A stretch of DNA of 64,000 nucleotides from Minisyncoccota bacterium (GTDB taxonomy: Bacteria > Patescibacteriota > Minisyncoccia > Phycocordibacterales > UBA9973), in contig JBAYKD010000002.1 in assembly GCA_041664745.1 (NCBI GenBank), positions 6,126-70,125 on the forward strand, read 5' to 3'. The translations under genes were made by a program, and so were the position numbers. Each line of letters starts with the position of its first letter. Position 1 is the stretch's first letter. Below the pieces are notes generated by a model, which was given only the letters and a program-made list of their open reading frames with translations, was not told where the DNA came from and ran no database searches. Shown piece by piece: positions 6,780 through 59,559 of the stretch.

Positions 6780-6791
6780 TGTGTTTTATAG

Positions 6792-6910
6792 AACACTCCA
6801 TAAAATTATTCTCGGACTCACCACACAATAAAATTCTACTGAATTTTTTGCTCGTACTCGGCTCGTCGGCCTCCGTAAGGGTTCGCTCGAGAACATTTTT
6901 GTTGCGTGTT
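6792..6910 (+). repeat. about 119-nt palindromic intergenic element, copy 1 (fills the csoR-copA spacer)
   Basis: Near-identical to the reverse complement of 58469..58587 and clearly related to 29959..30075. Imperfect ~25-nt terminal inverted repeats (AACACTCCATAAAATTATTCTCGGA / reverse complement AACACGCAACAAAAATGTTCTCGAG). The core is GC-rich (GCTCGTACTCGGCTCGTCGGCCTCCGTAAGGGTTCGCTCGAG). Confidence 0.85.
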
Positions 6911-6912
6911 AT

Positions 6913-7176
6913 TTACTTTCTCTTCAAACCATAAACTTTTAATATTTCCTCCGTCGCCTTTTTTGTTTGACCTTTTTGTATTTGGTGGACGAGGCAGGTG
7001 CCTAGGTGGCTTTCCATTAAAGCATCCTCTACCCCCGAGAGAGCTTGCTTCACGGCCGAAGTCTGAGTAATGATATCTATACAGTATGTTCCTTTTTCGA
7101 CCATTTCCTGTAAGCCTCGAACTTGTCCTTCAATAATCTTTAAACGACGTATTAGTTTTTGATTGTTATTATGCAT
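6913..7176 (-). CDS. csoR: CsoR-family copper-sensing transcriptional repressor
   Basis: 87 aa, DUF156-like helical protein with C-H-C ligand positions (GTYCIDII ... SHLGTC). It lies upstream of copA on the same strand. Confidence 0.85.
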   Translation of the reverse strand: MHNNNQKLIRRLKIIEGQVRGLQEMVEKGTYCIDIITQTSAVKQALSGVEDALMESHLGTCLVHQIQKGQTKKATEEILKVYGLKRK

Positions 7177-9097: not shown

Positions 9098-9136
9098 AAG
9101 TATATAGTAGCATAAAAAATCACGAGACCGTGAGAC

Positions 9137-9161
9137 TATAGCAAGGACCGTCCTTGCTATA
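9137..9161. repeat. perfect 25-nt palindrome TATAGCAAGGAC-C-GTCCTTGCTATA (TAGCAAGGACC family)
   Basis: Perfect dyad symmetry. The same motif occurs at 60665..60693 and 62695..62732, with half-sites at 60652..60664 and 63212..63223. Confidence 0.8.
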
Positions 9162-9286
9162 GTATGGCGGGAACGTGAGTACACTTATCGATCATTACAT
9201 GACCAGTATCCCAATTCGTTTCGGTTAACACCGAAAAACGAATTGGGCTTCGATTTCCGCACGCTTCATCCGCAGGGATGAAGCTC

Positions 9287-12182: not shown

Positions 12183-12185
12183 TTG

Positions 12186-12259
12186 TCCGTCCTCTAGGAT
12201 TTGAACCTAGGACCCCAGAGGTATAAGCTCTGTGCTCTAACCAGCTGAGCTAAGGACGG
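12186..12259 (-). tRNA. tRNA-Ile with anticodon UAU (reads AUA)
   Basis: Cloverleaf by hand: acceptor CCGTCCT/AGGACGG, D-arm GCTC-AGCTGGTTA-GAGC, anticodon arm CAGAG-CTTATAC-CTCTG, T-arm CTAGG-TTCAAAT-CCTAG, discriminator A. Confidence 0.8.
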
Positions 12260-19818: not shown

Positions 19819-22185
19819 TTATTCAAAATGCAATTTGAGATTTTTTGATTTAATTATTTCTGAGATGACGGGAAAGGATTTTAGATCTGTGTCAACCTCA
19901 ATCATTTTGATAGCTTCTGTTCGGGCAGCTTCTACCATTTTTATATTCTTTATAGCTTCCATGCCGAGGTCGGTAATGCCCCATTGCTTCTCTCCTCCCA
20001 AGAGTCCTGCTCCACGGAGCGATAGATCGAGCTCAGCAAGCTCAAATCCGTTTGATGCTTTTGTAATAGCCTTCAGTCTCTCGATTGTTTTGTCTGATTT
20101 AGCATCAGCAAATAAGTAGCAGTAGGATTGAAAAGTTGAACGAATAACTCGTCCGCGAAGCTGGTGGAGCTGGGCGAGACCGAAACGTTCTGCTCCTTCT
20201 ATTATGATTACAGTTGCGTTGGGGACGTTCACTCCGACTTCTATAACAGAAGTTGAGACCAATATATCAATTTTTTTATCGGCAAAATCTTTCATAACCT
20301 TCTCTTTTTTCTCCTTCGTCATCTTGCTGTGCATTATCTCAATATTATAATTTGGAAAGATGTCTTTCTTTAGTCTTTTGGCTTCATCATTAACAGTTCG
20401 AAGCTCGGAGATATTACTTCCGTCAGCACGCAATAAATCTCTGGTGAGATTTTTGCTAGTGCTCGGCTCGACTTCCTTACAGGAACAGTACACCTTTTGG
20501 ACACTTTGATTACAAAGTTTCTCAAAAGGTCTTGCGGAAGCTTCAGGTATTCGCTTCCTCACCTGCGTGAGGCTTCCTGAAGCAATATCTCCGAGCTTCT
20601 CACTTTCCTCACCGATTTTTGGACAAATTACATAAAGCTGTCGTCCTTCTTCTAATTCTTTCTTAATTTTTTCATAAGCTTCTGCTCTTTTATTTTCTTT
20701 TACTATTTCTGTGATGACTTGCTTGCGGCCAAGTGGCATCTCATCAATGATACTCAAATCCAAGTCGCCATAAATAGTGAGCGCAAGTGTGCGGGGGATA
20801 GGTGTCGCTGTCATTGATAAATAATGTGGGGCATGGCCATGCTTCTTTACCAACTTCATTCTTTGGTTTGTTCCAAATCTGTGTTGTTCATCTATTATTA
20901 CAAGCCCTAGATCTTTAAACTCTACGGTTTTAGATATGAGAGCATGTGTGCCGATCACTATCGGTATCTCACCATTTTTAATCCATTTCAAAAGCTGATT
21001 CTTGGCAATTGGCGTCCATGTTTTTATTTGTGAGCCTTTCTCCCATGGTGCACTTTTACTAGGGAATTTACGGCAACCAGAGCCTGTCATAAGAGCAATA
21101 GATATGCCAGTATGTTCGAAATATTTGATAAAGTTCTCATAAAGCTGGGTAGCGAGAACTTCTGTCGGAGCCATATAAGCGACTTGCAGATTACCAAAAT
21201 CTCCATACCGAGAAGTTCCTGTAGTATTCTTTATTACTGCGTATGCGATAGTTGCTGCTACGAAAGTTTTTCCACTCCCGACGTCACCTTCAAGTAGGCG
21301 TGACATTGGTTTGTCTTTCACGAAATCGGTCAAAATAGTATCGATTGTATTTGTCTGTGCCTTCGTGGGAGTGAAAGGGAAGCGAGATATAAAGTCATTA
21401 ATATCTTTCTCAGGTATTTTTAATTTATATGAAAAGTTTTCTTGATACTTCTTCTTCTCTTGCTGGCGTGAAAGCTGAATGAAAAAAACTTCTTCGAAAG
21501 CAAATCTTTTGCGAGCTATTTCTGCGTGTTCTCTCTTTTGTGGCATGTGGACCCATATCAAAGCTGTATGTAATGCTGGTAAATTATATTTATTTAATAT
21601 TTCGCTCGGTATATAGTCCACAATATCTTTCACGCAATCCTGCTTTAGTATCTTCTGTATAGCGTGATAGAACCATTTGGAAGTGATACCTCGACTTTCT
21701 CCATATACAGGGAAGCCGAATTGAGTTTGCTTTTCTTTATTATTGAAAAGTGAATCGTCGATATCTATAGGGAGAATATCTTCTTTGTTTATTTCTGGAT
21801 TGGTCAACGTAAGTCCATAAGTTTTATTATTCGTGACTTTGCCCGTTACTCGCACAGTTGAATCCTCCTTAAGCATTTTTGCTAAGTAGGGTTGATGAAA
21901 CCAAATAATATTTATAGAGGAGGTTAAGTCTGTGAGTACCGCTTGCCCCATTGGTATTTTACTTTTGAACCCTTTTTTAGTTTTTAGTCCATTTATTTTC
22001 CCAAGTATTGTTACATTTTCTCCATCCTTTAATGTATTTATATTTCGGACTTCACTTATATCACTGTAGCGAGAGGGGAAGTGATAAAGTAAATCCTTTA
22101 AAGTTTTTAAACCAAGTGTCGCTAGTGCTTTCTTTTGATTTACATCAACACGAAAATGATTTTCGATTTTATCGCCTAGATTCAT
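19819..22185 (-). CDS. recG: ATP-dependent DNA helicase RecG (carries a 66-aa in-frame insertion)
   Basis: Wedge/OB N-terminal domain, Walker A GDVGSGKT, DEQH box, QxxGRxxR-type motif HQLRGRVIRS, and C-terminal TRG region. See the insertion feature at 20400..20599. Confidence 0.9.
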   Translation of the reverse strand: MNLGDKIENHFRVDVNQKKALATLGLKTLKDLLYHFPSRYSDISEVRNINTLKDGENVTILGKINGLKTKKGFKSKIPMGQAVLTDLTSSINIIWFHQPYLAKMLKEDSTVRVTGKVTNNKTYGLTLTNPEINKEDILPIDIDDSLFNNKEKQTQFGFPVYGESRGITSKWFYHAIQKILKQDCVKDIVDYIPSEILNKYNLPALHTALIWVHMPQKREHAEIARKRFAFEEVFFIQLSRQQEKKKYQENFSYKLKIPEKDINDFISRFPFTPTKAQTNTIDTILTDFVKDKPMSRLLEGDVGSGKTFVAATIAYAVIKNTTGTSRYGDFGNLQVAYMAPTEVLATQLYENFIKYFEHTGISIALMTGSGCRKFPSKSAPWEKGSQIKTWTPIAKNQLLKWIKNGEIPIVIGTHALISKTVEFKDLGLVIIDEQHRFGTNQRMKLVKKHGHAPHYLSMTATPIPRTLALTIYGDLDLSIIDEMPLGRKQVITEIVKENKRAEAYEKIKKELEEGRQLYVICPKIGEESEKLGDIASGSLTQVRKRIPEASARPFEKLCNQSVQKVYCSCKEVEPSTSKNLTRDLLRADGSNISELRTVNDEAKRLKKDIFPNYNIEIMHSKMTKEKKEKVMKDFADKKIDILVSTSVIEVGVNVPNATVIIIEGAERFGLAQLHQLRGRVIRSTFQSYCYLFADAKSDKTIERLKAITKASNGFELAELDLSLRGAGLLGGEKQWGITDLGMEAIKNIKMVEAARTEAIKMIEVDTDLKSFPVISEIIKSKNLKLHFE
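20400..20599. mobile_element. palindromic GC-rich element inserted in-frame in recG (198-bp core)
   Basis: Perfect 16-bp terminal inverted repeat GAAGCTCGGAGATATT / AATATCTCCGAGCTTC. 20401..20598 is 198 bp, or 66 codons. It has internal nested hairpins and shares the core ATTTTTGCTnGTnCTCGGCTCG with the intergenic element family. Confidence 0.75.
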
Positions 22186-28540: not shown

Positions 28541-28627
28541 GGAGGCGTGGATGAGTGGTTTAAATCAACAGTTTACTAAACTGTCGAACCTTTACCGGTT
28601 CCGTGAGTTCGAATCTCACCGCCTCCG
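28541..28627 (+). tRNA. class II tRNA with Ser-like architecture and apparent anticodon ACU
   Basis: Acceptor GGAGGCG/CGCCTCC, Ser-type D-arm, anticodon arm ACAGT-TTACTAA-ACTGT (perfect 5-bp stem, 7-nt loop), long variable arm CGAACCTTTACCGGTTCCG, T-loop TTCGAAT, discriminator G. Confidence 0.7.
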
Positions 28628-28663
28628 CAAAGTTTTTATCGAAGCAAATTATTAATTAATTAA

Positions 28664-29956
<1,293 letters not shown>

Positions 29957-29958
29957 AA

Positions 29959-30075
29959 AACACTCCATAAGAATATTCTCGGACTCACCACGCATATTTC
30001 CTTGCTAGGAAATTGCTCTGCTCGGCCCAGTCGGCCTGCGCAAGTGTTCCCTCGAGAACATTCTTATTACGTGTT
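29959..30075 (+). repeat. about 117-nt palindromic intergenic element, copy 2 (3 nt after the eno stop)
   Basis: The termini match copy 1 (AACACTCCATAAGAATATTCTCGGACTCACCAC ... CTCGAGAACATTCTTATTACGTGTT). The central core is diverged (GCTCTGCTCGGCCCAGTCGGCCTGCGCAAGTGTTCC). Confidence 0.8.
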
Positions 30076-30108
30076 TTTTTAAAAAATATTTTGTGATACA
30101 ATATATAT

Positions 30109-33261: not shown

Positions 33262-33324
33262 AAAAGGGGAGGAAGAATTCGTCGCCCCCTGCGAAGGGGG
33301 AGATGCCGGAGGCAGAGGGGGTGT
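33262..33324 (-). repeat. GC-rich C-tract/G-tract hairpin element (family B), between comF and the ATP-grasp gene
   Basis: The reverse complement reads GACACCCCCTCTGCCTCCGGCATCTCCCCCTTCGCAGGGGGCGA. This is collinear with GACCCCTCCGCCTATGGCACCTCCCCTTAGCAGGGGAGGA at 58420..58458. Confidence 0.65.
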
Positions 33325-34011
33325 CTAATGTGCAACAGCAAAGCCGACGACCTTTTTCGCTCCAGACTTTTTCAAAAGCTTTATCATTTCTCCTAGTGTG
33401 CCGCCTGTAGTCGTGACGTCATCGATGATGATTATTATTTTACCCATAATCTGCTCCGCATCTTTTATTTCAAAAGCTCCTTTTATATTTTTCAATCTTT
33501 TGTTTCTATTTTCTATCCGAGCTTGTGGAACAGTATTGGCTTTTTTATAAATAATATCTTTTTTAATTGTAAATAAATTTGTATCTGCGAAATTACAAAA
33601 ACCTTTTGCTATTATTTCAGATTGATTATACCCACGGACCTTTCTTTTATCATTTGATATAGGTACTGGTACTATATAGATAGGGGAGCCAGCCGAAAAC
33701 ATTCGCAAAAGTTGTATCTCTTCTAAAAAAGATGAGTACAATAATTCTCCCAATTTTCTCCCCAAGTAGGGGGAGTGATAATACTTGAGTTTCCATATAG
33801 CCTTCTTAATTAAAGGGTCTCGATAGTCATATAAAGCCATTATTTTTTCTTCGGTGGGTCTTTCTGCCAAACGGAGCCCATCTATACAATTTTCACATAG
33901 TATTTGGCCTCCTTTTCTACACCCAAGACACTTGGAAGGGAATAGTATTTCTAAAATTAGACTGAATCCTCTTTTTATTGTATTAATAGTTTTTTTTGTA
34001 GTTCCCCCCAT
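33325..34011 (-). CDS. comF: ComF-family protein (phosphoribosyltransferase domain with N-terminal double CxxC)
   Basis: PSKCLGCRKGGQILCENC zinc-finger-like N-terminus and the PRT signature IIIIDDVTTTGGT. Confidence 0.8.
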   Translation of the reverse strand: MGGTTKKTINTIKRGFSLILEILFPSKCLGCRKGGQILCENCIDGLRLAERPTEEKIMALYDYRDPLIKKAIWKLKYYHSPYLGRKLGELLYSSFLEEIQLLRMFSAGSPIYIVPVPISNDKRKVRGYNQSEIIAKGFCNFADTNLFTIKKDIIYKKANTVPQARIENRNKRLKNIKGAFEIKDAEQIMGKIIIIIDDVTTTGGTLGEMIKLLKKSGAKKVVGFAVAH

Positions 34012-34054: not shown

Positions 34055-35203
34055 ATGGATAATTCATTAAAGAATATAATATCATCTGGGTTAGCTAGCT
34101 TATCTCTAATGTTTTCTTCTGATAAATCCACTCAGAGTATTTTAGGTATCGATATCGGTTCTTCGGCTATAAAAATTGTTCAATTGAAGAAGAAAAATGG
34201 TAAGGCAATTCTTGAAACTTACGGGGCTATTTCACTTGGTCCTTATGGTAATACAGAGATAGGCACAGTCACCAATTTACAGGCGGATGATATAGTTCGA
34301 GCACTTTTAGATGTGATCAAGGAATCCAATGTAACAATTAAGTCAGGTGTTATAGCTATACCTTCTTCTGCAAGTCTAATTTTTACCATATCATTACCTG
34401 CCAATATCACTGAAGAAAAGTTGGCAAGCGTGGTTCCTATTGAAGCACGTAAATATATTCCTGTACCTATCGCCGAAGTAACTTTAGATTGGTTTATTTT
34501 ACCAAAGGAGACTGAGTCATCCGAGAATAACATCATGGAGCAGTCTAAAGTACAAACACCTGCTACTTCTAATACAGAAGTTCTTGTTGTAGCAATTCAT
34601 AACGACATATTAACTCGTTACCAAGAGATATTGAAAAAGACTGAATTGCATTCAGACTCTTTTGAAATGGAAATTTTCAGTAATATAAGATCTTCCTTTG
34701 CTCACGATTTAACTCCTGTATTACTTATGGATTTTGGCGCTTCGAAAACCAAGCTTTCTATTATTGAAGAGGGAGTTGTTCATGTTTTCCATGTTGTGAA
34801 TAGAGGAGGGGCTGAAATTACGAAAAATATTGCCTCATCTCTAAGTATTTCCTTTACAGAAGCTGAGAAATTAAAGCGCACTACAGGGCTTGATCTGAAT
34901 AGTAATCCTGAAGTTGCAGATATTGTCCGTTTGTCGATGGATTATATTCTTTCAGATACTAATAGTATTGTGTTTGCTTATCAGAAGAAGTATAATAAAA
35001 ACATCAGTAAAGTTATTTTGACTGGCGGCGGGTCTCTCACGAAAGGACTCATGGAAAGAGCAACATCCAATTTTCACACCGAAGTTGTTTACAGTAATCC
35101 TTTCGGGAAAACAGAAGCTCCAGCTTTCTTGACACCAATACTAGAGCTTAGTGGACCAGAATTTAGTGTAGCTGTAGGTTTAGCATTGAGACAATTATTG
35201 TAA
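34055..35203 (+). CDS. pilM: type IV pilus assembly protein PilM (actin-like ATPase fold)
   Basis: ILGIDIGSSAIKIVQLKKKNGK..., LLMDFGASKTKLSII, and ILTGGGS. Confidence 0.85.
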   Translation: MDNSLKNIISSGLASLSLMFSSDKSTQSILGIDIGSSAIKIVQLKKKNGKAILETYGAISLGPYGNTEIGTVTNLQADDIVRALLDVIKESNVTIKSGVIAIPSSASLIFTISLPANITEEKLASVVPIEARKYIPVPIAEVTLDWFILPKETESSENNIMEQSKVQTPATSNTEVLVVAIHNDILTRYQEILKKTELHSDSFEMEIFSNIRSSFAHDLTPVLLMDFGASKTKLSIIEEGVVHVFHVVNRGGAEITKNIASSLSISFTEAEKLKRTTGLDLNSNPEVADIVRLSMDYILSDTNSIVFAYQKKYNKNISKVILTGGGSLTKGLMERATSNFHTEVVYSNPFGKTEAPAFLTPILELSGPEFSVAVGLALRQLL

Positions 35204-35208
35204 TAATT

Positions 35209-35940
35209 ATGGAGAATTCATTTCAAACATCATTTATACCCAAAAAGCCTATTATACCTAATGCCACTTCTTCAGGTGGTGGCAGTACCACTAGTATTTC
35301 TATGGTTGTATCTGTTTTCATTCTTGTAGTAATGATATTGGCCTTTGGTGGGCTCTATGTTTATAAGAATTTTTATTTATTAAAAAATAAAGAATCGTTA
35401 TCAGCCAATTTATTTAAAATACGTGATAGTTTTAACAAAGATACAATAACTCTACTTGAGACCTTTGATAAACGTACCAGCATCGCCAAACAAATTCTAG
35501 AAGGCCACGTCGTTCTATCTCCTTTATTTGAGAAAATTAATGAGCTTACTCTTTCTTCTATTCAATACACAAAATTTGAACACAAGGTTAATAACAATCT
35601 TTTTATTGTTAGAATGTCTGGGATAGCTCGTGATTATAAATCTATAGCTATTCAAGCTGATATTTTTAATGCGGATAAAGGGCAAGTATTTAAAAATGTA
35701 ATATTTTCTAATTTAACTAAAGATAAGAATAATTTTGTTACTTTTGATGTTGAGTTTAGTGTAGATCCATCTCTTCTTTCTTATTCTAATAATGTTTCAA
35801 ATTCTAAACCAGAAACATCAGCTCCAGCTCCAGCTCAAATTCAAATCCCAACACCAGCTCCAAATCCAACTACAACAACCACTAATCCTGCCCAACCAAA
35901 TGTAGCTACTCCTTTATCAGTTACAAATAACACACAATAA
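35209..35940 (+). CDS. PilN-like bitopic pilus-assembly protein with Pro/Thr-rich tail
   Basis: It occupies the position after pilM and has a single TM helix. The C-terminus is PETSAPAPAQIQIPTPAPNPTTTTTNPAQPN. Confidence 0.4.
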   Translation: MENSFQTSFIPKKPIIPNATSSGGGSTTSISMVVSVFILVVMILAFGGLYVYKNFYLLKNKESLSANLFKIRDSFNKDTITLLETFDKRTSIAKQILEGHVVLSPLFEKINELTLSSIQYTKFEHKVNNNLFIVRMSGIARDYKSIAIQADIFNADKGQVFKNVIFSNLTKDKNNFVTFDVEFSVDPSLLSYSNNVSNSKPETSAPAPAQIQIPTPAPNPTTTTTNPAQPNVATPLSVTNNTQ

Positions 35941-35942
35941 TT

Positions 35943-36533
35943 ATGAAACTTATTTTCCCAATTTTGTTCGTAGGAATATCTATAGTTATTTTTATTTTTG
36001 GTGTTAATCCAATATATAGTGAAGTTTCAGGTTTGAAAGCTGACATCGCTACTTATAATAGAGCTCTTGATAATTCCACAAACCTTCAAAAGACAGAGGA
36101 TTCTCTTATCAAATCTTATAATGAAATAAGTCAGTCAGACAAAGATCGTTTAAGTAGTTTTCTCCCAGATTCTGTGAATAATATTCAATTTATTCTTGAG
36201 CTTGAGCGTATTGCTAATCTTCATAATATGCCAATAAAGGATATTAAATTTGAAGCTAAAAGTAATAGTAACACTTCTGCTGATCCCAATGTTGTAGTTT
36301 CAGCAATTTCAACCGACACTCGTCCTTATGGAGTTTTCCCCATTGAATTCACGACAGAAGGGGATTATAATTCATTTGTTCTTTTCATAAAAGACCTTGA
36401 GTATAATCTAAGAGTTGCTGATATAAAATCTATATCATTTACTGTTCCAGATGCTGGTGCTAAGCCTGTAGCTGGTTTTGACCCGAATGTTTATCGTTAC
36501 TTAGTAAAAGTCGAGACTTACTGGCTTAAATAA
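35943..36533 (+). CDS. PilO-like pilus-assembly protein
   Basis: N-terminal TM helix, a coiled-coil segment, and a ferredoxin-like C-terminal half. Its gene order is the same as pilMNO. Confidence 0.5.
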   Translation: MKLIFPILFVGISIVIFIFGVNPIYSEVSGLKADIATYNRALDNSTNLQKTEDSLIKSYNEISQSDKDRLSSFLPDSVNNIQFILELERIANLHNMPIKDIKFEAKSNSNTSADPNVVVSAISTDTRPYGVFPIEFTTEGDYNSFVLFIKDLEYNLRVADIKSISFTVPDAGAKPVAGFDPNVYRYLVKVETYWLK

Positions 36534-36539
36534 TTCTAT

Positions 36540-37202
36540 ATGCATAAAAAATATAATAAATTTTTAATAGTATCATTTATAATAGTTTCCATTCTTGGAG
36601 TTTATTCTTATTTTTATAATGATCTAAGATCAGAAGCTGCTACAACAGCAGACGAGGAAAGTCCTCTCACTTCATCACTCGACACAACTACTACAGCACC
36701 AACAGATACAGTAACTGCAAGTAGCCAAGCCACAGAAGACACGGCCTTTCTCATGAAATTAGTTTCCCTCACGAAAATTAAAGTTGATTCATCTCTATTT
36801 AATAATAAAGCCTTTCAGCTTCTAGTAGATAACAATATTAAACTAGAAACTGTTCCATATGGACGTACTAATCCATTTTCTCCTACGACAGGTTCTGTTG
36901 TAAATGCTAATAATAACAAAATTACTTTTTTATTGAAAACCAATCCTGCTACTTTAATAACAAGCAAATCAGTAATTTTGAACGGTTCTCTTGAAGGGGT
37001 TACGTCTGACAATATTTATTTTGAATATGGTACGACAGAAACTCTAGGTAAGGTTACACCTAAAGTTATTCCTTCTTTGATTGGAAATTTTGCTTCAAAT
37101 TTAATAGGTCTTACAAGTAAGACAACATATTTCTTCCGTGCGGCTGCCTTTGTAAATGGTGCGCTCACCTTAGGAGATATAACGTCATTCACTACAAACT
37201 AG
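36540..37202 (+). CDS. bitopic hypothetical protein with C-terminal Ig/Fn3-like domain (pilus-locus associated)
   Basis: TM helix, Thr-rich linker, and a C-terminal beta-domain (ILNGSLEGVTSDNIYFEYGTTETLG...TYFFRAAAF). Confidence 0.4.
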   Translation: MHKKYNKFLIVSFIIVSILGVYSYFYNDLRSEAATTADEESPLTSSLDTTTTAPTDTVTASSQATEDTAFLMKLVSLTKIKVDSSLFNNKAFQLLVDNNIKLETVPYGRTNPFSPTTGSVVNANNNKITFLLKTNPATLITSKSVILNGSLEGVTSDNIYFEYGTTETLGKVTPKVIPSLIGNFASNLIGLTSKTTYFFRAAAFVNGALTLGDITSFTTN

Positions 37203-37203
37203 T

Positions 37204-38931: not shown

Positions 38932-38965
38932 GAGAACTATTGTAATTGTATTATAATGTATAGGT

Positions 38966-39355
38966 ATGGAAACGAACAAAAAAATTCTTATTATTGATGA
39001 TGATAATTTCCTTTTGGATATGTATGCACTCAAATTTGGCAAGTCTTCATTTGACGTGACTTCGGCCTTAGGTCCTGAAATTGCTCTCGAGAAATTACGT
39101 GGAGGCTTGCTTCCCGATATAATATTACTAGATATCGTCATGCCGGTAATGGATGGATTCGAATTATTGGAAAAAATGAAAGAAGAAAATTTATCGCCTG
39201 ATTCTATTAAAATTATTCTTTCAAACAGAGGTCAGCCTTCTGATATTGCCCGCGGAGAAGCTCTCGGTGCATCTGGATACATAGTGAAAGCTTCAAGTAC
39301 ACCGACAGAAGTAATAGATAAAGTAAGAAGTATTATTAGCGAACATAAAAAGTAA
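38966..39355 (+). CDS. stand-alone response-regulator receiver domain (CheY-like)
   Basis: ILIIDDD, phospho-acceptor context ILLDIVMPVMDG, and conserved Ser/Lys positions (ILSN..., YIVKA). Confidence 0.85.
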   Translation: METNKKILIIDDDNFLLDMYALKFGKSSFDVTSALGPEIALEKLRGGLLPDIILLDIVMPVMDGFELLEKMKEENLSPDSIKIILSNRGQPSDIARGEALGASGYIVKASSTPTEVIDKVRSIISEHKK

Positions 39356-39359
39356 CAAA

Positions 39360-40418: not shown

Positions 40419-40423
40419 ACTTT

Positions 40424-41629: not shown

Positions 41630-41714
41630 ATAAATCAGTGATTTTTGACTTATCCACATCTTACTCTTGTGCTTTAAAGAATTTTATATGATATAATATG
41701 AGTATTAAAAAATG

Positions 41715-41750
41715 AGGTCGCGGTCTTTTATACTAAAGACAAAATTATTA
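41715..41750 (+). promoter_or_regulatory. conserved pilin-leader motif, copy 1 (AGGTCGCGGTCTTTTATACTAAAGACAAAATTATTA)
   Basis: The motif recurs upstream of the second pilin (42234..42267). It contains the hairpin GTCTTT-N-AAAGAC and lies downstream of an extended -10 (TGATATAAT, 41689..41697). Confidence 0.4.
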
Positions 41751-41764
41751 ATTAAAATTTAATC

Positions 41765-42223: not shown

Positions 42224-42233
42224 TTATTAGTTA

Positions 42234-42267
42234 AGGTCGCGTCTTTTTATAAAGACAAATTATTATT
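42234..42267 (+). promoter_or_regulatory. conserved pilin-leader motif, copy 2 (AGGTCGCGTCTTTTTATAAAGACAAATTATTATTA)
   Basis: See copy 1. This copy sits in the pilin1-pilin2 spacer. Confidence 0.4.
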
Positions 42268-42302
42268 AAGTTATTAAATTTCTACCTTTGGTAGAAAATA
42301 TT

Positions 42303-42812: not shown

Positions 42813-42829
42813 ATTTTAATTAATTTTAC

Positions 42830-42861
42830 AAAAAACCACTTCAATCTTGAGTGGTTTTTTG
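42830..42861 (+). terminator. rho-independent terminator after the pilin pair
   Basis: AAAAAACCACT-TCAATCTTG-AGTGGTTTTTTG. Confidence 0.7.
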
Positions 42862-42886
42862 TTTGTTTGGATGTTATACTATATAC

Positions 42887-43699: not shown

Positions 43700-43711
43700 T
43701 TTATTTATTCG

Positions 43712-44380: not shown

Positions 44381-44381
44381 T

Positions 44382-45035: not shown

Positions 45036-45036
45036 T

Positions 45037-46110: not shown

Positions 46111-48198
46111 ATGGAAGATAAAAAATTAAAAAACCGAATAGTTAAACTTCGGAAAGAGATTTCTCGTCTTCGCTCTGAATATCATGAGAAGAATAATCCG
46201 AAAGTTACCGATGATGTATATGAGTCCTTATCTCGCGAGCTTAAAGATCTTGAAAGTAAATATCCCGAATATCTCGATCCAAATAGCGCTATAAATAGAG
46301 TAGCGGGCAAACCTCTACCGAGTTTCCAAAAAGTGAAGCATGACATAAGAATGCTTTCTTTGAATGATGTTTTTTCTGAAGAAGAGATTACAGATTGGGA
46401 AACTCGTATCTCAAAAATTTTAGAGAATTCCAATTCTTTAAATTATTTTTGTGAAGTGAAGCTTGATGGTTTGTCAGCCTCGCTCCACTATAAAGATGGA
46501 GTTTTTGTGAGAGGGGCCACGAGAGGAGACGGATGGATAGGGGAAGATGTAACCGAAAATTTAAAAATGATTTCGTCTATACCACTTCGATTGGATGGCG
46601 ATATCAAGGGCGATGTTGAAGTTCGTGGTGAAGTTGTAATGACGAAAAAGGCGTGGGAGAAATTGAATAAAAAACAAGAAGAATCTGGCAAAACAATTTT
46701 TGCAAATACTCGTAATGCTGCTGCAGGGAGCCTCCGTCAGCTTGATCCGCAAATAGTAAAGGAGAGGAATCTTGATTTTTTTGCTTGGGATATAGCACAA
46801 TATCCTACAAGTATTTCTAACCACAGCGATAAGCATAAAATTTTGAAAGATATTGGTTTTCAAATTGCCCCATACGATAAAAAGGCCAAGAATTTAAAAG
46901 AAGTTTTTTCTTTTATAAAAGAGATTGGAAAAGTACGAGCAGGTTTTCCTTATGGTACTGATGGTATGGTTATCTCTATTGATAATTTAGAGATACAAGA
47001 AAGTTTAGGCTATGTGGGTAAGGCACCAAGATATATGACTGCGTATAAATACGAAGCGGAGAGAGCGACAACAGTAGTGACCGATATAACTGTGAATGTT
47101 GGAAGAACGGGCGTGATGACTCCACTAGCACACTTTAATTCGACTCTGGTTGCTGGTTCGACTATTTCAAAAGCAACATTACACAATATGGATCAGATAG
47201 AACGCCTTGATATAAGAGTGGGTGATACTGTCGTTATTCAAAAAGCTGGCGATGTTATTCCTGAGATTGTAGAAGTACTTATAAATATGCGTACTGGGAA
47301 AGAGAAGAAATTTAAAATGCCAGAATTTTGTCCGGTATGTAATTCTAAAATTGAACGTAAGACTGGAGTCGGAGAAAGTCCTATGAGCAACTGGTCTGGC
47401 ACCGGCTCCCGTCCCCCTCGTCCGAGGACCTTGCGAAGAGGAGCTTTCTCCGACTCCAGTCTGTCTTCTTCTGTGGCTTTTTACTGCACTAATAAAAACT
47501 GTCCTGCTAGAAGTAGGAGAGGCATGCAACATTTTGTAAATATATTTGAAATTTATGAGATAGGCCCAAAAATTCTTGATAGATTAAAAGATGAAGGACT
47601 TGTCACAGATGCGGCTGATTTATTTACACTTGAGAAGGTTGACCTTTCAGGGCTCGAAAGGTTTGGGGAAAAATCTGCCGACAACATTATTAAATCTATT
47701 GATATTCACAGAGTGGTTTTACTTTGGAGATTTATATATGCTCTTGGAATTATTCATGTAGGGGAGCAGACGGCTCGCGATCTTGCGAACCATTTTGGTT
47801 CTCTTACCGAGATATCAAAAGCCAGTGAAGAGAGTATAAATAGTATAGAAAATATTGGACCTGTAGTGAGTAAGAGTATATATGAATATTTTAGACAAAA
47901 AGAAAATATAGCTTTTATGGACAAGTTATTTAAAAATGGAGTTATTATTGATAATACATCTTTAAAGGGAACTTTTAGACTTAAAGATAAAATATTTGTT
48001 TTAACAGGAACTCTGGAAACCTTATCTAGAGATGATGCCAAAAAAATGATTATCAAAGAAGGTGGCAGAGTCTCTTCTTCTGTCTCAAATAAGACGGATT
48101 ATGTAGTGGTTGGAGCAGAACCTGGAAGTAAATATGAAGATGCTAAGAAAATTGGGGTAAAAACTCTCACAGAAGATGAATTTCTAAAAATATTGTAA
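46111..48198 (+). CDS. ligA: NAD-dependent DNA ligase LigA (carries a ~33-aa in-frame insertion in the Zn-finger)
   Basis: Adenylation site CEVKLDG, OB fold, Zn-finger CPVC...C..NC, HhH repeats, and C-terminal BRCT (FVLTGTL...). Confidence 0.95.
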   Translation: MEDKKLKNRIVKLRKEISRLRSEYHEKNNPKVTDDVYESLSRELKDLESKYPEYLDPNSAINRVAGKPLPSFQKVKHDIRMLSLNDVFSEEEITDWETRISKILENSNSLNYFCEVKLDGLSASLHYKDGVFVRGATRGDGWIGEDVTENLKMISSIPLRLDGDIKGDVEVRGEVVMTKKAWEKLNKKQEESGKTIFANTRNAAAGSLRQLDPQIVKERNLDFFAWDIAQYPTSISNHSDKHKILKDIGFQIAPYDKKAKNLKEVFSFIKEIGKVRAGFPYGTDGMVISIDNLEIQESLGYVGKAPRYMTAYKYEAERATTVVTDITVNVGRTGVMTPLAHFNSTLVAGSTISKATLHNMDQIERLDIRVGDTVVIQKAGDVIPEIVEVLINMRTGKEKKFKMPEFCPVCNSKIERKTGVGESPMSNWSGTGSRPPRPRTLRRGAFSDSSLSSSVAFYCTNKNCPARSRRGMQHFVNIFEIYEIGPKILDRLKDEGLVTDAADLFTLEKVDLSGLERFGEKSADNIIKSIDIHRVVLLWRFIYALGIIHVGEQTARDLANHFGSLTEISKASEESINSIENIGPVVSKSIYEYFRQKENIAFMDKLFKNGVIIDNTSLKGTFRLKDKIFVLTGTLETLSRDDAKKMIIKEGGRVSSSVSNKTDYVVVGAEPGSKYEDAKKIGVKTLTEDEFLKIL
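47360..47462. mobile_element. palindromic GC-rich element inserted in-frame in ligA
   Basis: Perfect 19-bp inverted repeat AGACTGGAGTCGGAGAAAG / CTTTCTCCGACTCCAGTCT flanking a GC-rich core (GGCACCGGCTCCCGTCCCCCTCGTCCGAGGACCTTGCGAAGAGG). 47362..47460 is 99 bp, or 33 codons. Confidence 0.75.
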
Positions 48199-56739: not shown

Positions 56740-58419
56740 ATGAAAAAAGCACCAGACGAAAAGCTAGAAAAAAAATTATCTAACTGTAAGTATATATTTG
56801 TAGTTGGTGGAGTTATTTCAGGCGTCGGTAAGGGAGTCACTGCTTCATCTCTCGCTCGTATTCTCTCTGACAGAGGTCAGATTGTGACAGCTATAAAGAT
56901 TGATCCATATATAAATATAGACGCAGGAACCATGAATCCAACGGAGCATGGCGAAGTTTTCGTCCTTGATGATGGAGATGAAACTGATCAGGATATGGGT
57001 AACTATGAACGCTTCCTAGGAGTGGATCTTTCTCGTGCGAACTATATGACGACGGGGCGTGTATATCAGAGCGTCATCGAAAGGGAGAGAAATCTAGAAT
57101 ACGATGGTGCTTGCGTGCAAGTCGTTCCACATATTCCACTTGAAGTGATTAACCGCATAGAGAATGCACGTGCGAAAGTAAATGCAGATGTAGTCATTAT
57201 AGAGATTGGCGGTACAGTGGGGGAATACGAGAACATTCTTTTCCTTGAAGCTGCTCGCTTGATGAAGCTTCGCATGCCGAACCATGTATTCTTCGTCATG
57301 GTTTCTTACTTACCAATACCAAGCAATGTGGGCGAAATGAAAACCAAGCCGACTCAGCATGCCGTCCGAACTTTGAACTCTTCTGGAATTCAGCCGGACA
57401 TTATCGTTGCTCGTAGTAAAATGCCGTTAGATGATAAAAGGAAAGAAAAGATTTCTATGTTTTGTAACATTCCGAAGGAGAATATTATCTCTGCGCCCGA
57501 TGTTGCTAGTATCTACGATATACCAGTAAACTTTGAGAAGGAAGGATTGGGCGATATGATCTGCAACAAGATAGACATGGTCTGTGGTCCAGCCTTAAAT
57601 GCTGGCTCTACAAAATGGAAAAAGTTTGCAAAATCCACACATGTGAAGAACAATGTAGTGAATATTGCAATCGTTGGTAAATATTTCAACACAGGAGACT
57701 TTACACTTTCAGATTCATACCTTTCTGTTATCGAAGCTATTAAATATTCTTCATATAAATCAGGTAGTAGGCCAGTCCTCACTTGGATATCATCGATGGA
57801 CTTTGAGAAGAATCCAAAATCCATCAAAAATTTGTCCAAGTACGACGGGATTATTGTTCCTGGCGGATTCGGGACAAGAGGTATAGAAGGAATAATAAAG
57901 ACGATAGAATTTGCTCGAAAGAATAAAATTCCTTACTTTGGTTTATGTTATGGTATGCAGCTTATGGTCATCGAGTACGCTCGTAATATTCTAGGCATCA
58001 AGGATGCTACGACTCGTGAAGTGAATCCGAATTCTAATAGTTTAGTCATAGATATTATGGAGGATCAGAAGGCAAAAGTAGAGAATAAAAAGATGGGCGG
58101 TAGCATGCGCTTGGGTGCATATTCTGCAAATCTTAAGAAGGGTACAATTGCCCAAATGGCCTATAAATCATCATCCATTAGCGAACGTCATAGACACCGC
58201 TATGAGGTCTCAAATGCTTACAGAGAGGCTCTAGAGGACGCAGGGCTCGTATTCTCAGGAGTATCTCCTGATGGGAAGCTTTGCGAGATTGCCGAGCTTC
58301 CAGCCGACAAGCATCCATTCTTCCTAGGCACACAATTCCACCCAGAATTCAAAGCGCGCCCTCTTTCCCCACACCCACTTTTCACTGCATTCATCAAAGC
58401 TTGTCAGAAGAATAAGTAG
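56740..58419 (+). CDS. pyrG: CTP synthase
   Basis: KYIFVVGGVISGVGKG, a glutamine amidotransferase domain with GLCYGMQ, and HRHRYEV. Confidence 0.97.
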   Translation: MKKAPDEKLEKKLSNCKYIFVVGGVISGVGKGVTASSLARILSDRGQIVTAIKIDPYINIDAGTMNPTEHGEVFVLDDGDETDQDMGNYERFLGVDLSRANYMTTGRVYQSVIERERNLEYDGACVQVVPHIPLEVINRIENARAKVNADVVIIEIGGTVGEYENILFLEAARLMKLRMPNHVFFVMVSYLPIPSNVGEMKTKPTQHAVRTLNSSGIQPDIIVARSKMPLDDKRKEKISMFCNIPKENIISAPDVASIYDIPVNFEKEGLGDMICNKIDMVCGPALNAGSTKWKKFAKSTHVKNNVVNIAIVGKYFNTGDFTLSDSYLSVIEAIKYSSYKSGSRPVLTWISSMDFEKNPKSIKNLSKYDGIIVPGGFGTRGIEGIIKTIEFARKNKIPYFGLCYGMQLMVIEYARNILGIKDATTREVNPNSNSLVIDIMEDQKAKVENKKMGGSMRLGAYSANLKKGTIAQMAYKSSSISERHRHRYEVSNAYREALEDAGLVFSGVSPDGKLCEIAELPADKHPFFLGTQFHPEFKARPLSPHPLFTAFIKACQKNK

Positions 58420-58458
58420 ACCCCTCCGCCTATGGCACCTCCCCTTAGCAGGGGAGGA
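58420..58458 (+). repeat. GC-rich C-tract/G-tract hairpin element (family B), immediately after the pyrG stop
   Basis: GACCCCTCCGCCTATGGCACCTCCCCTTAGCAGGGGAGG, with stem CCTCCCC/GGGGAGG. It is collinear with the reverse complement of 33262..33324. Confidence 0.65.
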
Positions 58459-58468
58459 AAAATACAAA

Positions 58469-58587
58469 AACACGTAATAAAAATGTTCTCGAGCGAACCC
58501 TTACGGAGGCCGACGGGCCGAGTACGAGCAAAAAATTCAACAGAATTTTATTGTGTGGTGAGTCCGAGAATGTTTTTATGGAGTGTT
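58469..58587 (-). repeat. about 119-nt palindromic intergenic element, copy 3 (inverted orientation)
   Basis: Its reverse complement differs from copy 1 (6792..6910) at only a handful of positions. Confidence 0.85.
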
Positions 58588-58603
58588 TTTTAAATTGTGA
58601 TAC

Positions 58604-59542: not shown

Positions 59543-59559
59543 CTTTGGGTGTAAATAAA

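What the first reader, a model, noticed from the sequence alone, without database searches (positions are those of the whole stretch)
20400..20599. 198-bp GC-rich palindromic element sitting in-frame inside recG
The RecG ORF reads ...YVICPKIGESEKL-[GDIASGSLTQVRKRIPEASARPFEKLCNQSVQKVYCSCKEVEPSTSKNLTRDLLRADGSNISEL]-RTVNDEAKRLKKDIFPNYNIEIMHSKM. The bracketed ~66 aa have no counterpart in this part of RecG as I know it, where the conserved pattern runs ...CPLIEESEKL...(short helix)...LLHGRM. At the DNA level the extra segment is bounded by a perfect 16-bp inverted repeat (GAAGCTCGGAGATATT at 20400-20415; AATATCTCCGAGCTTC at 20584-20599). Its 15-bp-core-to-core length is 198 bp, or 66 codons, so the frame is preserved. 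It is visibly more GC-rich than the surrounding gene and contains nested hairpins (GCTTCAGG..CCTCAC-CTGC-GTGAGG..CCTGAAGC). This is the signature of a selfish palindromic element inserted into a coding region without breaking it. Such behaviour is known for Rickettsia palindromic elements (RPEs). I do not know of it being described for this kind of genome.
Basis: partly seen in the sequence, partly recalled or inferred. Interest (0 to 1): 0.82.

Follow-up and report, generated by a model that had tools for sequence, protein, structure and literature searches.

The report
In-frame palindromic repeat element in recG
The extra segment in this candidate-phyla-radiation bacterium's RecG helicase is a copy of a small hairpin-forming repeat that also sits between genes and in-frame in other essential genes, behaviour known from Rickettsia that I found no report of in this bacterial group.

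Summary
A perfect 16-bp inverted repeat (20400-20415 / 20584-20599) bounds a GC-richer 200-nt segment, in frame, in recG of a Candidatus Paceibacterota contig. It adds about 58-62 residues between the two helicase lobes.

The segment is composite. A roughly 110-nt member of a multi-copy palindromic repeat family carries a further unique 90-nt palindromic piece (20472-20561) nested in one of its internal hairpins.

The family has three intergenic copies in this window and about 65 hits in Nomurabacteria/Paceibacteria assemblies. These lie between genes in either orientation, or in frame in RecG and in TsaD, always in the same orientation and reading frame.

Forty-two distinct copies share a three-way-junction fold with strong compensatory variation. 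Synonymous sites inside the element are about half as variable as in flanking recG. RecG orthologs 97% identical elsewhere differ in carrying it. Ancestral empty alleles, deletion footprints and nested-expansion alleles all exist.

A second, unrelated in-frame palindrome splits the LigA zinc finger (47360-47462).

The closest known case is the Rickettsia palindromic elements. I found no report of this for Patescibacteria. The mobilising enzyme, translation of the insert and any function remain untested.

The parts
19819..22185 (-). Host gene recG (788 aa). The wedge, DEAD, Helicase_C and RecG_dom3_C domains are all intact.
   Evidence: The product is identical to an NCBI protein named 'ATP-dependent DNA helicase RecG [Candidatus Paceibacterota bacterium]'. 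The source contig is ENA ERZ27249449 k141_1677615.
20400..20599 (-). Composite in-frame palindromic insert: a family-1 element plus a nested piece. It encodes about residues 529-595 of RecG, between strand 516-520 and helix 598-609.
   Evidence: AlphaFold2 gives pLDDT of about 25 and coil for residues 526-594.
20400..20415 (.). Outer stem of the palindrome. This arm encodes ..NISEL.
   Evidence: Perfect 16-bp complement of 20584-20599.
20584..20599 (.). Outer stem of the palindrome. This arm encodes (E)KLGDI.
   Evidence: In orthologs the two arms co-vary: ELGQSV with NTLSEL, EVGHI with NMSDL.
20400..20471 (-). 3' (coding-sense) part of the family-1 element. It holds half of the H1 hairpin, the junction sequence GAGCACTAGC, the H2 hairpin (20430-20456) and the right arm. 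It encodes EPSTSKNLTRDLLRADGSNISEL.
   Evidence: nhmmer against the family profile gives E = 1.5e-11. The covariance model scores 57 bits, E = 1.4e-11. The closest short-form relative is the L053 recG insert.
20472..20561 (-). Nested 90-nt (30-codon) piece in place of the H1 loop. It encodes VRKRIPEASARPFEKLCNQSVQKVYCSCKE(V) and has its own internal palindrome at 20492-20530.
   Evidence: Alignment to short-form alleles. The self-palindrome scores 46 against a null maximum of 35. No relative was found in 0.49 Mb of fetched loci or among the 120 closest RecG orthologs. A peptide word search returned nothing, but it also failed to recover this RecG, so it is uninformative.
20562..20599 (-). 5' (coding-sense) part of the family-1 element: the left arm and junction, encoding KLGDIASGSLTQ.
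   Evidence: nhmmer hit on the left arm at E = 0.014. Alignment to L002 and L053.
6784..6918 (-). Intergenic family-1 copy between the csoR-like gene and copA. The orthologous junction is empty in L004 and L059.
   Evidence: 134 bits.
29951..30083 (-). Intergenic family-1 copy immediately after the enolase stop codon. The orthologous site is empty in L058 and L059, and L004 has a degraded copy.
   Evidence: 97 bits.
58461..58595 (+). Intergenic family-1 copy between the convergent genes pyrG and a LOG-family gene.
   Evidence: 141.9 bits.
47360..47462 (+). A second, unrelated in-frame palindromic element ('family 3') inside the LigA zinc finger. It has a 19-bp perfect inverted repeat and 60% GC.
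   Evidence: E. coli LigA (2owo) aligns to residues 6-420 and 459-695. The Pfam ZBD model matches only its second half. The element core matches an insert in the TsaD of L011.
58414..58460 (+). A small GC-rich hairpin repeat ('X type'). It is the same kind that occupies the recG linker in frame in P0011-like orthologs.
   Evidence: E = 0.004. A second weak copy lies at 33278-33327 (E = 0.007).

Best explanation
The repeat-bounded segment is a copy of a non-autonomous, hairpin-forming repeat family of Paceibacteria (Nomurabacteria-type Patescibacteria). It sits in frame in the linker that follows the first strand of RecG's second RecA-like lobe.

The family unit is about 100-135 nt. It folds, as single-stranded DNA or RNA, into a three-way junction. 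A long outer stem has a sequence that differs by subfamily and host site. It encloses a conserved core with two small hairpins: H1 (GGCC-N4-GGCC) and H2 (AAAATTC-AGCA-GAATTTT).

Copies lie in the very short intergenic spacers of these 89%-coding genomes. In one orientation and frame, which has no stop codons, they also lie inside recG and tsaD. There the element is most probably translated as a hydrophilic, disordered surface loop that the enzyme tolerates (inferred, not shown).

In this genome the recG copy acquired a further 90-nt palindromic piece in the H1 loop. Other copies have expansions at the same spot. The element therefore grows by nested insertion or fold-back synthesis and shrinks by deletion between its arms, which leaves stubs such as EEVGDL.

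The nucleotide sequence and pairing, not the peptide, are what is conserved.

Shown here: family membership, in-frame state, fold covariation, presence/absence polymorphism and nested architecture. Inferred: transposition-like spread, translation, neutrality to RecG, and preference for hairpin loops as targets.
For: Family membership
- The family profile hits the recG insert at E = 1.5e-11, and the covariance model gives 57 bits.
- The core of the L002 recG insert is about 90% identical to the window's intergenic copies.

Census
- Pattern scans of genome and metagenome collections returned 51 loci, nearly all Nomurabacteria/Paceibacteria.
- nhmmer found about 65 copies. About 19 are in frame in RecG and 9 in frame in TsaD, all in the same strand and frame. 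The rest are intergenic in both orientations, filling the spacers.

Fold
- Across 42 distinct copies, 95.2% of cells are paired, against 36-54% when the partners are slid.
- 22 of 33 pairs show changes on both sides.
- The covariation score is 0.452, against 0.04-0.10 for the slid controls.
- One covarying pair links a non-synonymous site to a synonymous one (ACG..AGT versus GCG..AGC).

Nucleotide-level rather than protein-level constraint
- Codon-position entropy is 0.30/0.27/0.49 in the element, against 0.36/0.17/1.04 and 0.27/0.16/1.03 in the two flanks.
- H2 stem variants encode KKFSRIL, KKPSKVL and KNLSRDL.

Polymorphism
- Among 120 orthologs, 52 are empty, 48 short, 9 nested, 6 footprints and 5 carry another element.
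- Pairs 97% identical outside the linker differ in state.
- Filled and empty intergenic sites were compared directly.

Other points
- The empty linker resembles that of T. maritima.
- Nested expansions sit at H1 in the window, L041, L052 and P0051.
- AlphaFold2 predicts the insert as low-confidence coil between conserved secondary-structure elements.
- A second family lies in frame in LigA and TsaD.
- At least five insert families occupy the same TsaD loop.
Against: - No transposase or other mobilising gene was identified. Pfam found none in the window's ORFs.
- No target-site duplication is visible at the two filled-versus-empty intergenic sites.
- Only two host genes were found for family 1, far fewer than for Rickettsia palindromic elements.
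- RecG alleles with the insert also differ from empty alleles in the adjacent residues (KAV or RTV against KSV). This fits allele exchange by recombination at least as well as repeated insertion.
- Covariation in the outer stem partly reflects non-homologous stems of different subfamilies rather than stepwise compensatory change.
- The tested structure was derived from the same alignment on which the pairs were counted.
- Translation is not demonstrated.
- The AlphaFold2 model is mediocre overall (mean pLDDT 63.6).
- The nested 90-nt piece has no detectable relative, so its origin is open.
Confidence: 0.78

Rival explanations
1. The three-way-junction element is a functional structured nucleic acid, such as a mobile bidirectional terminator, an mRNA-stability module or a protein-binding single-stranded DNA site. 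It would be kept by purifying selection. The genic copies would persist because the structure matters, for example for recG or tsaD mRNA, and not merely because the insert is tolerated.
For: - Synonymous sites in the element are about half as variable as in flanking recG.
- Compensatory changes are strong in H1, H2 and the 3-bp junction helix.
- Intergenic copies from different assemblies are about 90-95% identical, although their RecG proteins are only about 80% identical.
- Subfamily-I copies are bracketed by A5CAC...GTGT5 and often sit just after stop codons or between convergent genes.
- G-U pairs outnumber A-C 46 to 11 in intergenic copies.
Against: - There is no Rfam match, even at E = 10.
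- The simple terminator scan does not call the elements.
- Intergenic copies occur in both orientations and also between divergent genes.
- Many close relatives lack the recG copy without apparent consequence.
- The G-U excess rests on a few inherited columns and is absent in genic copies, 24 to 17.
- High similarity between copies can equally come from recent spread or gene conversion.
Confidence: 0.22
2. The palindromes are not transposed. They would arise and grow in place by quasi-palindrome template switching (fold-back synthesis). They would then spread between lineages as recG or tsaD alleles through DNA uptake and homologous recombination. The arms would co-vary because template switching perfects imperfect palindromes, not because of selection.
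For: - Host-specific outermost arms extend the palindrome into host codons, for example AAGCTC with GAGCTT.
- The nested piece begins with an inverted copy-like stretch of the upstream arm, GCTTCAGGAAGCCTCAC-GCAG-GTGAGGAAGC..CCTGAAGC.
- No target-site duplication is seen.
- Residues adjacent to the insert co-segregate with the insert state.
- The window encodes a type IV pilus apparatus typical of DNA-uptake systems.
Against: - The same roughly 60-nt core occurs at many non-orthologous intergenic sites and in two unrelated genes. In-place growth cannot produce that.
- The similarity of the nested piece to the arms is not above the shuffled controls: scores of 18-21 against null means of 14-17.
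Confidence: 0.12
3. The segment is simply a lineage-specific protein loop or domain of RecG under protein-level selection, and the DNA palindromy is incidental.
For: - The insert is always open and in frame. A homologous peptide is present in about half of the 120 closest orthologs.
- It contains Cys residues (CNQS..CSC) that could hint at metal binding.
Against: - The same DNA occurs between genes and in TsaD.
- Codon position 2 is more variable, and position 3 far less variable, than in the host gene.
- Stem variants encode chemically unrelated residues.
- The Cys-containing part is unique to this contig.
- There is no Pfam match for the peptide.
- AlphaFold2 predicts coil at pLDDT of about 25.
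- Orthologs 97% identical elsewhere lack it.
Confidence: 0.04
4. The insert is not part of the mature protein. It would be removed as an intron or intein, or skipped by programmed translational bypassing.
For: It forms a very stable hairpin inside a coding region, as bypassed elements do.
Against: - Every genic copy examined keeps the frame and has no stop codon. Lengths range from 38 to 71 aa, and nested expansions also preserve the frame.
- At 64 aa it is too short for an intein, and it lacks the terminal Cys/Ser...Asn residues.
- There is no intron or ribozyme match in Rfam.
Confidence: 0.03

Closest known systems
Rickettsia palindromic elements (RPE-1 and related families)
   Same: - They are roughly 100-150-bp palindromic repeats present both between genes and in frame within unrelated housekeeping genes.
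- They encode a conserved peptide and are tolerated by the host protein.
- The mobilising enzyme is unknown.
Source: review PMC10969869, read. That base-pairing is kept by compensatory changes, and that the inserts lie on protein surfaces, is my recollection of Ogata et al. 2000/2002, which I did not read here.
   Different: - The host phylum is unrelated (Patescibacteria, not Alphaproteobacteria).
- No sequence relationship was tested.
- Only two host genes were found for this family, against dozens of genic insertions for RPEs.
- Several unrelated families recurrently occupy the same loops (RecG linker, TsaD loop).
- The core is a conserved three-way junction with interchangeable outer stems.
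- There are nested expansions at a fixed internal hairpin.
ERIC/IRU elements of enterobacteria
   Same: They are roughly 127-bp imperfect palindromes in transcribed regions. Size variants arise by internal insertions and deletions at fixed sites, intragenic copies occur occasionally, and no transposase is known (own knowledge; intragenic ERIC elements are mentioned in PMC10969869).
   Different: ERIC elements are essentially extragenic. In-frame occupation of essential enzymes is not their hallmark. They belong to a different taxon with no sequence relationship.
Classical bacterial MITEs (Correia/NEMIS, Nezha, RUP, BOX)
   Same: They are short and non-autonomous, have terminal inverted repeats and are multi-copy. 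Some act as terminators or create in-frame fusions (PMC10969869).
   Different: MITEs have conserved ends that match a parent insertion sequence, and they leave target-site duplications. Here the core is conserved while the outer stem varies. No duplication is seen and no parent insertion sequence was found.
REP/BIME elements with RAYT, and IS200/IS605-derived palindromic elements
   Same: Recognition would be of a hairpin rather than a sequence. There is no target-site duplication, and insertion into or next to other hairpins is known. These features could explain the structure-level conservation and nested insertions (own knowledge; REP tags in the abstract of PMC3733652).
   Different: REP elements are 20-40 nt, extragenic and carry a 5' GTAG or CGTC tag. 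No Y1/HUH transposase gene was found in the window. The association is untested.
Translationally bypassed 'byp' palindromes of yeast mitochondria, and the phage T4 gene 60 gap
   Same: They are GC-rich hairpin-forming mobile inserts inside coding regions of AT-rich genomes (own knowledge).
   Different: Those inserts break the frame and are skipped by the ribosome. Here every copy is open and a multiple of three in length, so translation is the economical reading.

Membership tests
In-frame palindromic repeats of the RPE kind (behavioural class) | Multi-copy palindromic unit of about 100-150 bp in one genome | tested here: met
   Four copies in 64 kb by covariance model. Several copies per assembly elsewhere.
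In-frame palindromic repeats of the RPE kind (behavioural class) | Copies inside ORFs that keep the reading frame and the host protein's domains | tested here: met
   RecG and TsaD copies are all open and in one frame. The RecG domains are intact.
In-frame palindromic repeats of the RPE kind (behavioural class) | Orthologs without the insert exist (insertion, not ancestral sequence) | tested here: met
   52 of 120 orthologs have the Thermotoga-like 13-14-aa linker. Pairs 97% identical elsewhere differ in state.
In-frame palindromic repeats of the RPE kind (behavioural class) | Insert lies on the protein surface, away from catalytic motifs | tested here: inconclusive
   AlphaFold2 places it as coil (pLDDT about 25) between strand 516-520 and helix 598-609. 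The model has mean pLDDT 63.6, so its position in space is unreliable.
Rickettsia palindromic element families proper (RPE-1 to RPE-10) | Sequence homology to an RPE consensus | not tested
The taxon and base composition make homology unlikely. I do not file the element as an RPE family member.
Classical MITE | Target-site duplication flanking the terminal inverted repeats | tested here: not met
   Filled-versus-empty comparisons at csoR|copA and downstream of enolase show no direct duplication.
Classical MITE | Parent insertion sequence with the same termini, or a transposase in the genome | tested here: inconclusive
   No transposase Pfam family in the window's ORFs. Only 64 kb of the genome was examined.
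REP/BIME | 20-40-nt extragenic palindrome with a 5' GTAG or CGTC tag and an associated RAYT gene | tested here: not met
   The unit is about 100-135 nt and partly genic. CGTC/GACG occurs only as the H1 loop. No RAYT-like gene is in the window.
Intein | At least about 130 aa, N-terminal Cys/Ser, C-terminal His-Asn followed by Cys/Ser/Thr, and Hint-domain motifs | tested here: not met
   The insert is 64 aa and runs GDI...SEL. It has no Pfam match.
Known structured RNA families (introns, ribozymes, riboswitches, sRNAs in Rfam 15) | Match to a curated covariance model | tested here: not met
   No match at gathering score over the window, nor at E up to 10 over an intergenic copy.
Programmed translational bypass element | Coding gap that breaks the frame or carries a stop after the take-off codon | tested here: not met
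   All genic copies are stop-free and in frame.

The most novel reading that the evidence does not exclude
Paceibacteria may harbour a whole population of hairpin elements: family 1, family 3, the X type and at least three more seen in TsaD. These would insert without target duplication, preferentially into existing hairpin loops. Under this reading a few permissive loops of essential enzymes (RecG linker, TsaD loop, LigA zinc finger) become self-perpetuating landing pads. Elements would be gained, nested, swapped and deleted there faster than the proteins diverge. The conserved three-way-junction core would be the recognition structure of an unidentified enzyme acting on single-stranded DNA, or a functional RNA module. 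The system would then be a structure-guided, in-frame-compatible mobile element type that continuously remodels protein loops in ultra-small genomes.
Probability: 0.3. Interest if true: 0.82.

Novelty: new member of a known kind. Interest (0 to 1): 0.66.

Why it matters
In-frame 'protein-coding palindromes' have been treated as a peculiarity of Rickettsia. This window shows the same behaviour in a free-standing lineage of the candidate phyla radiation, with several unrelated families. That suggests it is a general outcome when selfish hairpin repeats live in very compact genomes, here 89% coding.

- **Annotation.** It explains part of the unexplained 'extra loops' in Patescibacteria proteins. 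Such inserts should not be read as functional domains.
- **Population markers.** It provides natural presence/absence markers for population genetics of uncultivated bacteria.
- **An open evolutionary question.** Synonymous sites inside an essential gene are held by nucleic-acid structure, or by concerted evolution, rather than by the protein.
- **A search target.** The conserved three-way-junction core gives a concrete handle for finding the mobilising enzyme.

Tried and rejected
- **Rfam.** The whole window at gathering score and an intergenic copy at E up to 10 gave no family for the element.
- **Pfam on the 64-aa insert.** No match.
- **Peptide profile search.** A profile of the insert peptide against 1.84 billion representative proteins gave only two real hits, both TsaD. 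The other four were low-complexity eukaryote-like repeat proteins. Host range is probably underestimated, because cluster representatives may lack the insert.
- **Short-peptide searches.** The first query was too short. The second found no candidate, not even this RecG, so it is uninformative.
- **Relatives of the nested 90-nt piece.** None below E = 0.05 in 0.49 Mb of loci. Its similarity to the element's own arms is not above shuffled controls.
- **Phage carriage.** There is no match in IMG/VR or in GenBank phages.
- **Intrinsic-terminator scan.** It does not call the intergenic copies.
- **G-U versus A-C asymmetry.** This was meant to decide between RNA-level and DNA-level folding. The result was inconclusive.
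- **Orientation of intergenic copies relative to neighbouring genes.** Mixed, with no strand rule.
- **Target-site duplication.** None seen.
- **Transposase in the window.** None found by Pfam.
- **DNA of P0051.** This is another nested-expansion allele. Its DNA could not be fetched.
- **Neighbour-joining tree of RecG.** The tree is poorly resolved. I therefore relied on pairwise identities rather than on counting gains and losses.
Full report
**1. The observation**

The window carries a 788-aa ORF on the minus strand (19819..22185). Pfam and PDB searches identify it as RecG: the wedge, DEAD, Helicase_C and RecG_dom3_C domains, and 1gm5 at E = 2.5e-123. The identical protein is deposited as RecG of a 'Candidatus Paceibacterota bacterium', on a 119-kb ENA contig.

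The inverted repeat is as reported. GAAGCTCGGAGATATT at 20400-20415 is the exact reverse complement of 20584-20599, and the pairing extends to 33-nt arms at 82%. Such repeats are far from chance. Perfect 16-mer inverted repeats within 300 nt occupy 26 positions in the window, against 0.125 in simulated sequence.

The segment is 46.5% GC, against 37.8% for the rest of the gene. It folds with z = -8.9 on the sense strand and -9.6 on the other.

T. maritima RecG aligns on either side, to residues 11-532 and 603-764, but has nothing in between.

There are two minor corrections. The segment is 200 nt, and the bracketed peptide is 64 aa.

**2. It is a member of a repeat family**

A permissive search of the insert against the window found two intergenic relatives. 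Profile searches then defined three intergenic copies: 6784-6918 on the minus strand, 29951-30083 on the minus strand, and 58461-58595 on the plus strand. The recG insert matches their profile at E = 1.4e-7, improving to 1.5e-11 with a better profile.

Read in the coding orientation, the intergenic copies translate to ...LTEADEPSTSKKFSRILL.... That is almost the peptide inserted in the RecG of another assembly, P0002 (...LTQADGPSTSKKFSRILL...). At the DNA level the cores are about 90% identical.

**3. RecG orthologs show every stage**

The 120 closest RecG proteins (68-90% identity over the whole protein; 75-96% in the alignment) are alike except at this linker. By linker type they divide as follows:

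| State | Count | Linker |
|---|---|---|
| Empty | 52 | 13-14 aa, e.g. DEEDKIKLDV; resembles Thermotoga's EESDKLNV and is therefore ancestral |
| Short insert | 48 | 38-41 aa |
| Nested expansion | 9 | 45-71 aa, including this window |
| Footprint | 6 | Stubs that keep only the arm ends, e.g. EEVGDL = GAGGTCGG|CGACCTC in L003 |
| Other element | 5 | A different small GC hairpin insert (PLRPSGTSPLAGGG) |

In the short inserts, the N- and C-terminal residues are reverse-complement translations of each other: ELGQSV with NTLSEL, EVGHI with NMSDL, and KLGDI with NISEL here. The palindrome is therefore maintained while its sequence changes.

The insert state changes faster than the protein. P0072/P0102 and P0024/P0034 are 97% identical outside the linker but differ in state. 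The nearest neighbour shares the state in only 79 of 120 cases. My neighbour-joining tree was too poorly resolved to count events.

**4. The window's copy is composite**

I aligned the window's copy to short alleles (L002, and L053 as the closest). The window has the normal left arm and junction (20562-20599) and the normal right part (20400-20471). In place of the H1 loop it has 90 extra nucleotides (20472-20561, 30 codons).

That piece is itself palindromic: 20492-20530 scores 46 against a null maximum of 35. It has no detectable relative anywhere I could look.

Other copies carry different expansions at the same internal hairpin. L041 and L052 have 24 nt. P0051, P0081 and P0059 show expansions at the peptide level.

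**5. Census and host range**

One degenerate 36-nt pattern from the core was scanned over species-representative genomes and over JGI metagenomes. It returned 21 and 30 loci respectively, almost all Nomurabacteria/Paceibacteria, with up to three contigs per assembly. The viral collection and the phage records gave nothing.

nhmmer over these loci found about 65 copies.
- About 19 are in frame in RecG.
- Nine are in frame in a second gene, whose product is TsaD (PF00814, named TsaD by several sources). There the insert lies between GGPEI and LPRPM, for example ENVVPGSIAQAVEPSTSKKHSSVLLRADGNNISSE.
- RecG and TsaD copies use the same orientation and the same reading frame.
- The remainder are intergenic. 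They fill spacers to within a few bases of the neighbouring ORFs, in both orientations, between tandem, convergent and divergent genes.

A profile of the peptide searched against 1.84 billion representative proteins recovered only TsaD. Family 1 therefore has few coding hosts, with the caveat that cluster representatives may lack the insert.

Two intergenic copies in the window can be compared with empty orthologous sites. These are csoR|copA in L004 and L059, and the site after enolase in L058 and L059. The copies are bounded by ..A5CAC and GTGT5.., and no target-site duplication is visible.

**6. Structure is what is conserved**

Forty-two distinct copies align over 139 columns. RNAalifold proposes a three-way junction with these parts:
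- an outer stem of 14 or more pairs;
- a 3-bp helix closing the H1 hairpin (GGCC-N4-GGCC);
- the 12-pair H2 hairpin.

On that structure, 95.2% of cells are paired, against 36-54% when the partners are slid by one to three columns. Twenty-two of 33 pairs show changes on both sides. The covariation score is 0.452, against 0.04-0.10 for the slid controls.

Two caveats apply. The structure was derived from this same alignment. In addition, the outer stems of different subfamilies are probably not homologous, so their 'covariation' is partly a matter of different palindromes.

H1, H2 and the junction helix do vary within a homologous context:
- H1 appears as GGCC/GGCC, GGCT/AGCC, GGGC/GCCC and GGAC/GTCC.
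- H2 appears as AAAATTC/GAATTTT, AAAACCT/AGGTTTT and AAATCTC/GAGATTT.
- One covarying pair couples a Thr/Ala codon change (ACG to GCG) with a synonymous Ser change 20 nt away (AGT to AGC).

The H2 variants encode KKFSRIL, KKPSKVL and KNLSRDL, so the peptide is not what is being kept.

I measured per-codon-position entropy over 11 distinct RecG alleles that carry the insert:

| Region | Position 1 | Position 2 | Position 3 |
|---|---|---|---|
| Upstream flank | 0.36 | 0.17 | 1.04 |
| Element | 0.30 | 0.27 | 0.49 |
| Downstream flank | 0.27 | 0.16 | 1.03 |

Third positions inside the element are about half as variable as in the host gene, and second positions are more variable.

Whether the fold matters as RNA or as single-stranded DNA could not be decided. 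The G-U versus A-C asymmetry is 46:11 in intergenic copies but rests on a few inherited columns, and it is 24:17 in genic copies. No Rfam family matches.

**7. The protein**

AlphaFold2, run with 93 orthologs, gives a mediocre model (mean pLDDT 63.6). It reproduces the expected secondary structure. Residues 526-594 come out as coil at pLDDT of about 25, between strand 516-520 (YVICP) and helix 598-609.

The peptide is hydrophilic and has no Pfam match. All helicase domains are intact.

The economical reading is a tolerated, disordered surface loop. Translation itself is inferred only from the strict preservation of frame and the absence of stop codons in every genic copy.

**8. The phenomenon is broader than this element**

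A scan of the window for long inverted repeats inside ORFs found one other GC-rich case. At 47360-47462 there is a 19-bp perfect inverted repeat with 60% GC, against 37% in the flanks. It lies in frame in NAD-dependent DNA ligase.

E. coli LigA aligns to residues 6-420 and 459-695. About 34 residues are therefore inserted between the two cysteine pairs of the zinc finger. The Pfam ZBD model matches only its second half.

The core of this element, read on the other strand, matches an insert in the TsaD of L011 (E = 2e-4; peptide FSGPRTKGAGAVPDH). There it sits behind a remnant of the family-1 left arm, ENVVPGS.

Among 120 TsaD orthologs, the same loop carries family 1, a sister variant (GSATARARGIFQQKNIRA, also seen in distant RecG alleles), family 3, at least three further insert types, empty 17-20-aa loops and footprints.

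The small 'X' hairpin that occupies the RecG linker in P0011-like orthologs also occurs between genes in this window, at 58414-58460.

**9. How it most likely works**

*Shown:* a multi-copy hairpin unit with a conserved core; presence/absence at orthologous intergenic and genic sites; in-frame copies in two genes; growth by nested pieces at a fixed hairpin; decay by deletion between arms.

*Inferred:*
- The units spread by an unidentified mechanism that leaves no target duplication.
- In an 89%-coding genome the surviving copies are those in tiny spacers, or in a stop-free frame within permissive loops.
- Existing hairpins attract further insertions. This would explain why several unrelated families pile up in the same few loops, and why cores and stems appear shuffled between subfamilies.

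No transposase-like gene is present in the window.

The main alternatives are three. The core could be a functional structured module under selection. The palindromes could grow in place by template switching. The alleles could move by recombination, which fits the co-segregating adjacent residues KAV or RTV against KSV. These are not mutually exclusive with the main reading.

**10. Comparison with what is known, and novelty**

The behaviour matches the Rickettsia palindromic elements as summarised in PMC10969869. Those are palindromic repeats of about 150 bp, in several families, many of them in frame in housekeeping genes, with no known mobilising enzyme.

I do not file this as an RPE family member, because homology was not tested and the taxon differs. 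It fails the classical MITE test for target-site duplication and the REP definition. It is not an intein, not a known RNA family and not a bypass element.

Four full-text searches combined palindromic-element or MITE terms with Patescibacteria, CPR, Parcubacteria or Nomurabacteria. None found a paper describing such elements. This is a limit of that library, not proof of absence.

I therefore rate it a new member of a known kind. It has features worth following up: the conserved three-way-junction core, nested growth, multi-family hot-spot loops, and constraint on synonymous sites.

Noticed in passing
window 47360-47462 (ligA ORF 46111..48198, + strand): A second in-frame palindromic insert. 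It has a 19-bp perfect inverted repeat, 60% GC and adds about 34 aa, splitting the C4 zinc finger of NAD-dependent DNA ligase. Its core matches an insert type found in TsaD orthologs ('family 3').
   Followed up: partly
window 58414-58460 and 33278-33327; L059 11573-11647: A small GC-rich hairpin repeat (GACCCCTCCGCC..GGCACCTCCCCTTAGCAGGGGAGG). It is intergenic here, but lies in frame at the same RecG linker in P0011-like orthologs (peptide PLRPSGTSPLAGGG).
   Followed up: partly
TsaD orthologs P0121-P0245 (loop between GGPEI and LPRPM): The same TsaD loop carries at least five different insert families, plus empty 17-20-aa loops and truncated footprints, among orthologs 60-82% identical. It is a hot spot for in-frame inserts.
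   Followed up: partly
L041 692-850 and L052 4273-4431: Intergenic family-1 copies with a 24-nt expansion (TGATTAGTAAATCATATCGTGAGATAAG) in the H1 loop. This is the same position as the 90-nt nested piece in the window's recG.
   Followed up: no
window 9120-9178 and 60665-60693: Another repeated palindrome, CTATAGCAAGGAC/GTCCTTGCTATAG, occurs twice in the window. One copy is about 150 nt beyond the 3' end of the tmRNA gene.
   Followed up: no
window 59456-59557: A 23-nt inverted repeat (91% complementary) brackets the tRNA-Gln gene (59472-59543), extending beyond the acceptor stem.
   Followed up: no
window 21016-21084 (RecG residues about 368-390): RecG has a further stretch of about 20 aa (RKFPSKSAPWEKGSQIKTW) in helicase lobe 1 with no counterpart in T. 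maritima or E. coli RecG. It is conserved among the orthologs and is not an obvious palindrome.
   Followed up: no
window 34055-45615: A type IV pilus / pseudopilin gene cluster (PilM, two T2SSE ATPases, T2SSF, prepilin peptidase, several N_methyl pilins). This is the usual DNA-uptake apparatus of these bacteria and is relevant to allele exchange.
   Followed up: no
window 12185-12259 and 28541-28628: ARAGORN calls a tRNA-Ile with anticodon TAT and a tRNA-Ser with anticodon ACT. Both anticodons are unusual for bacterial gene sets.
   Followed up: no
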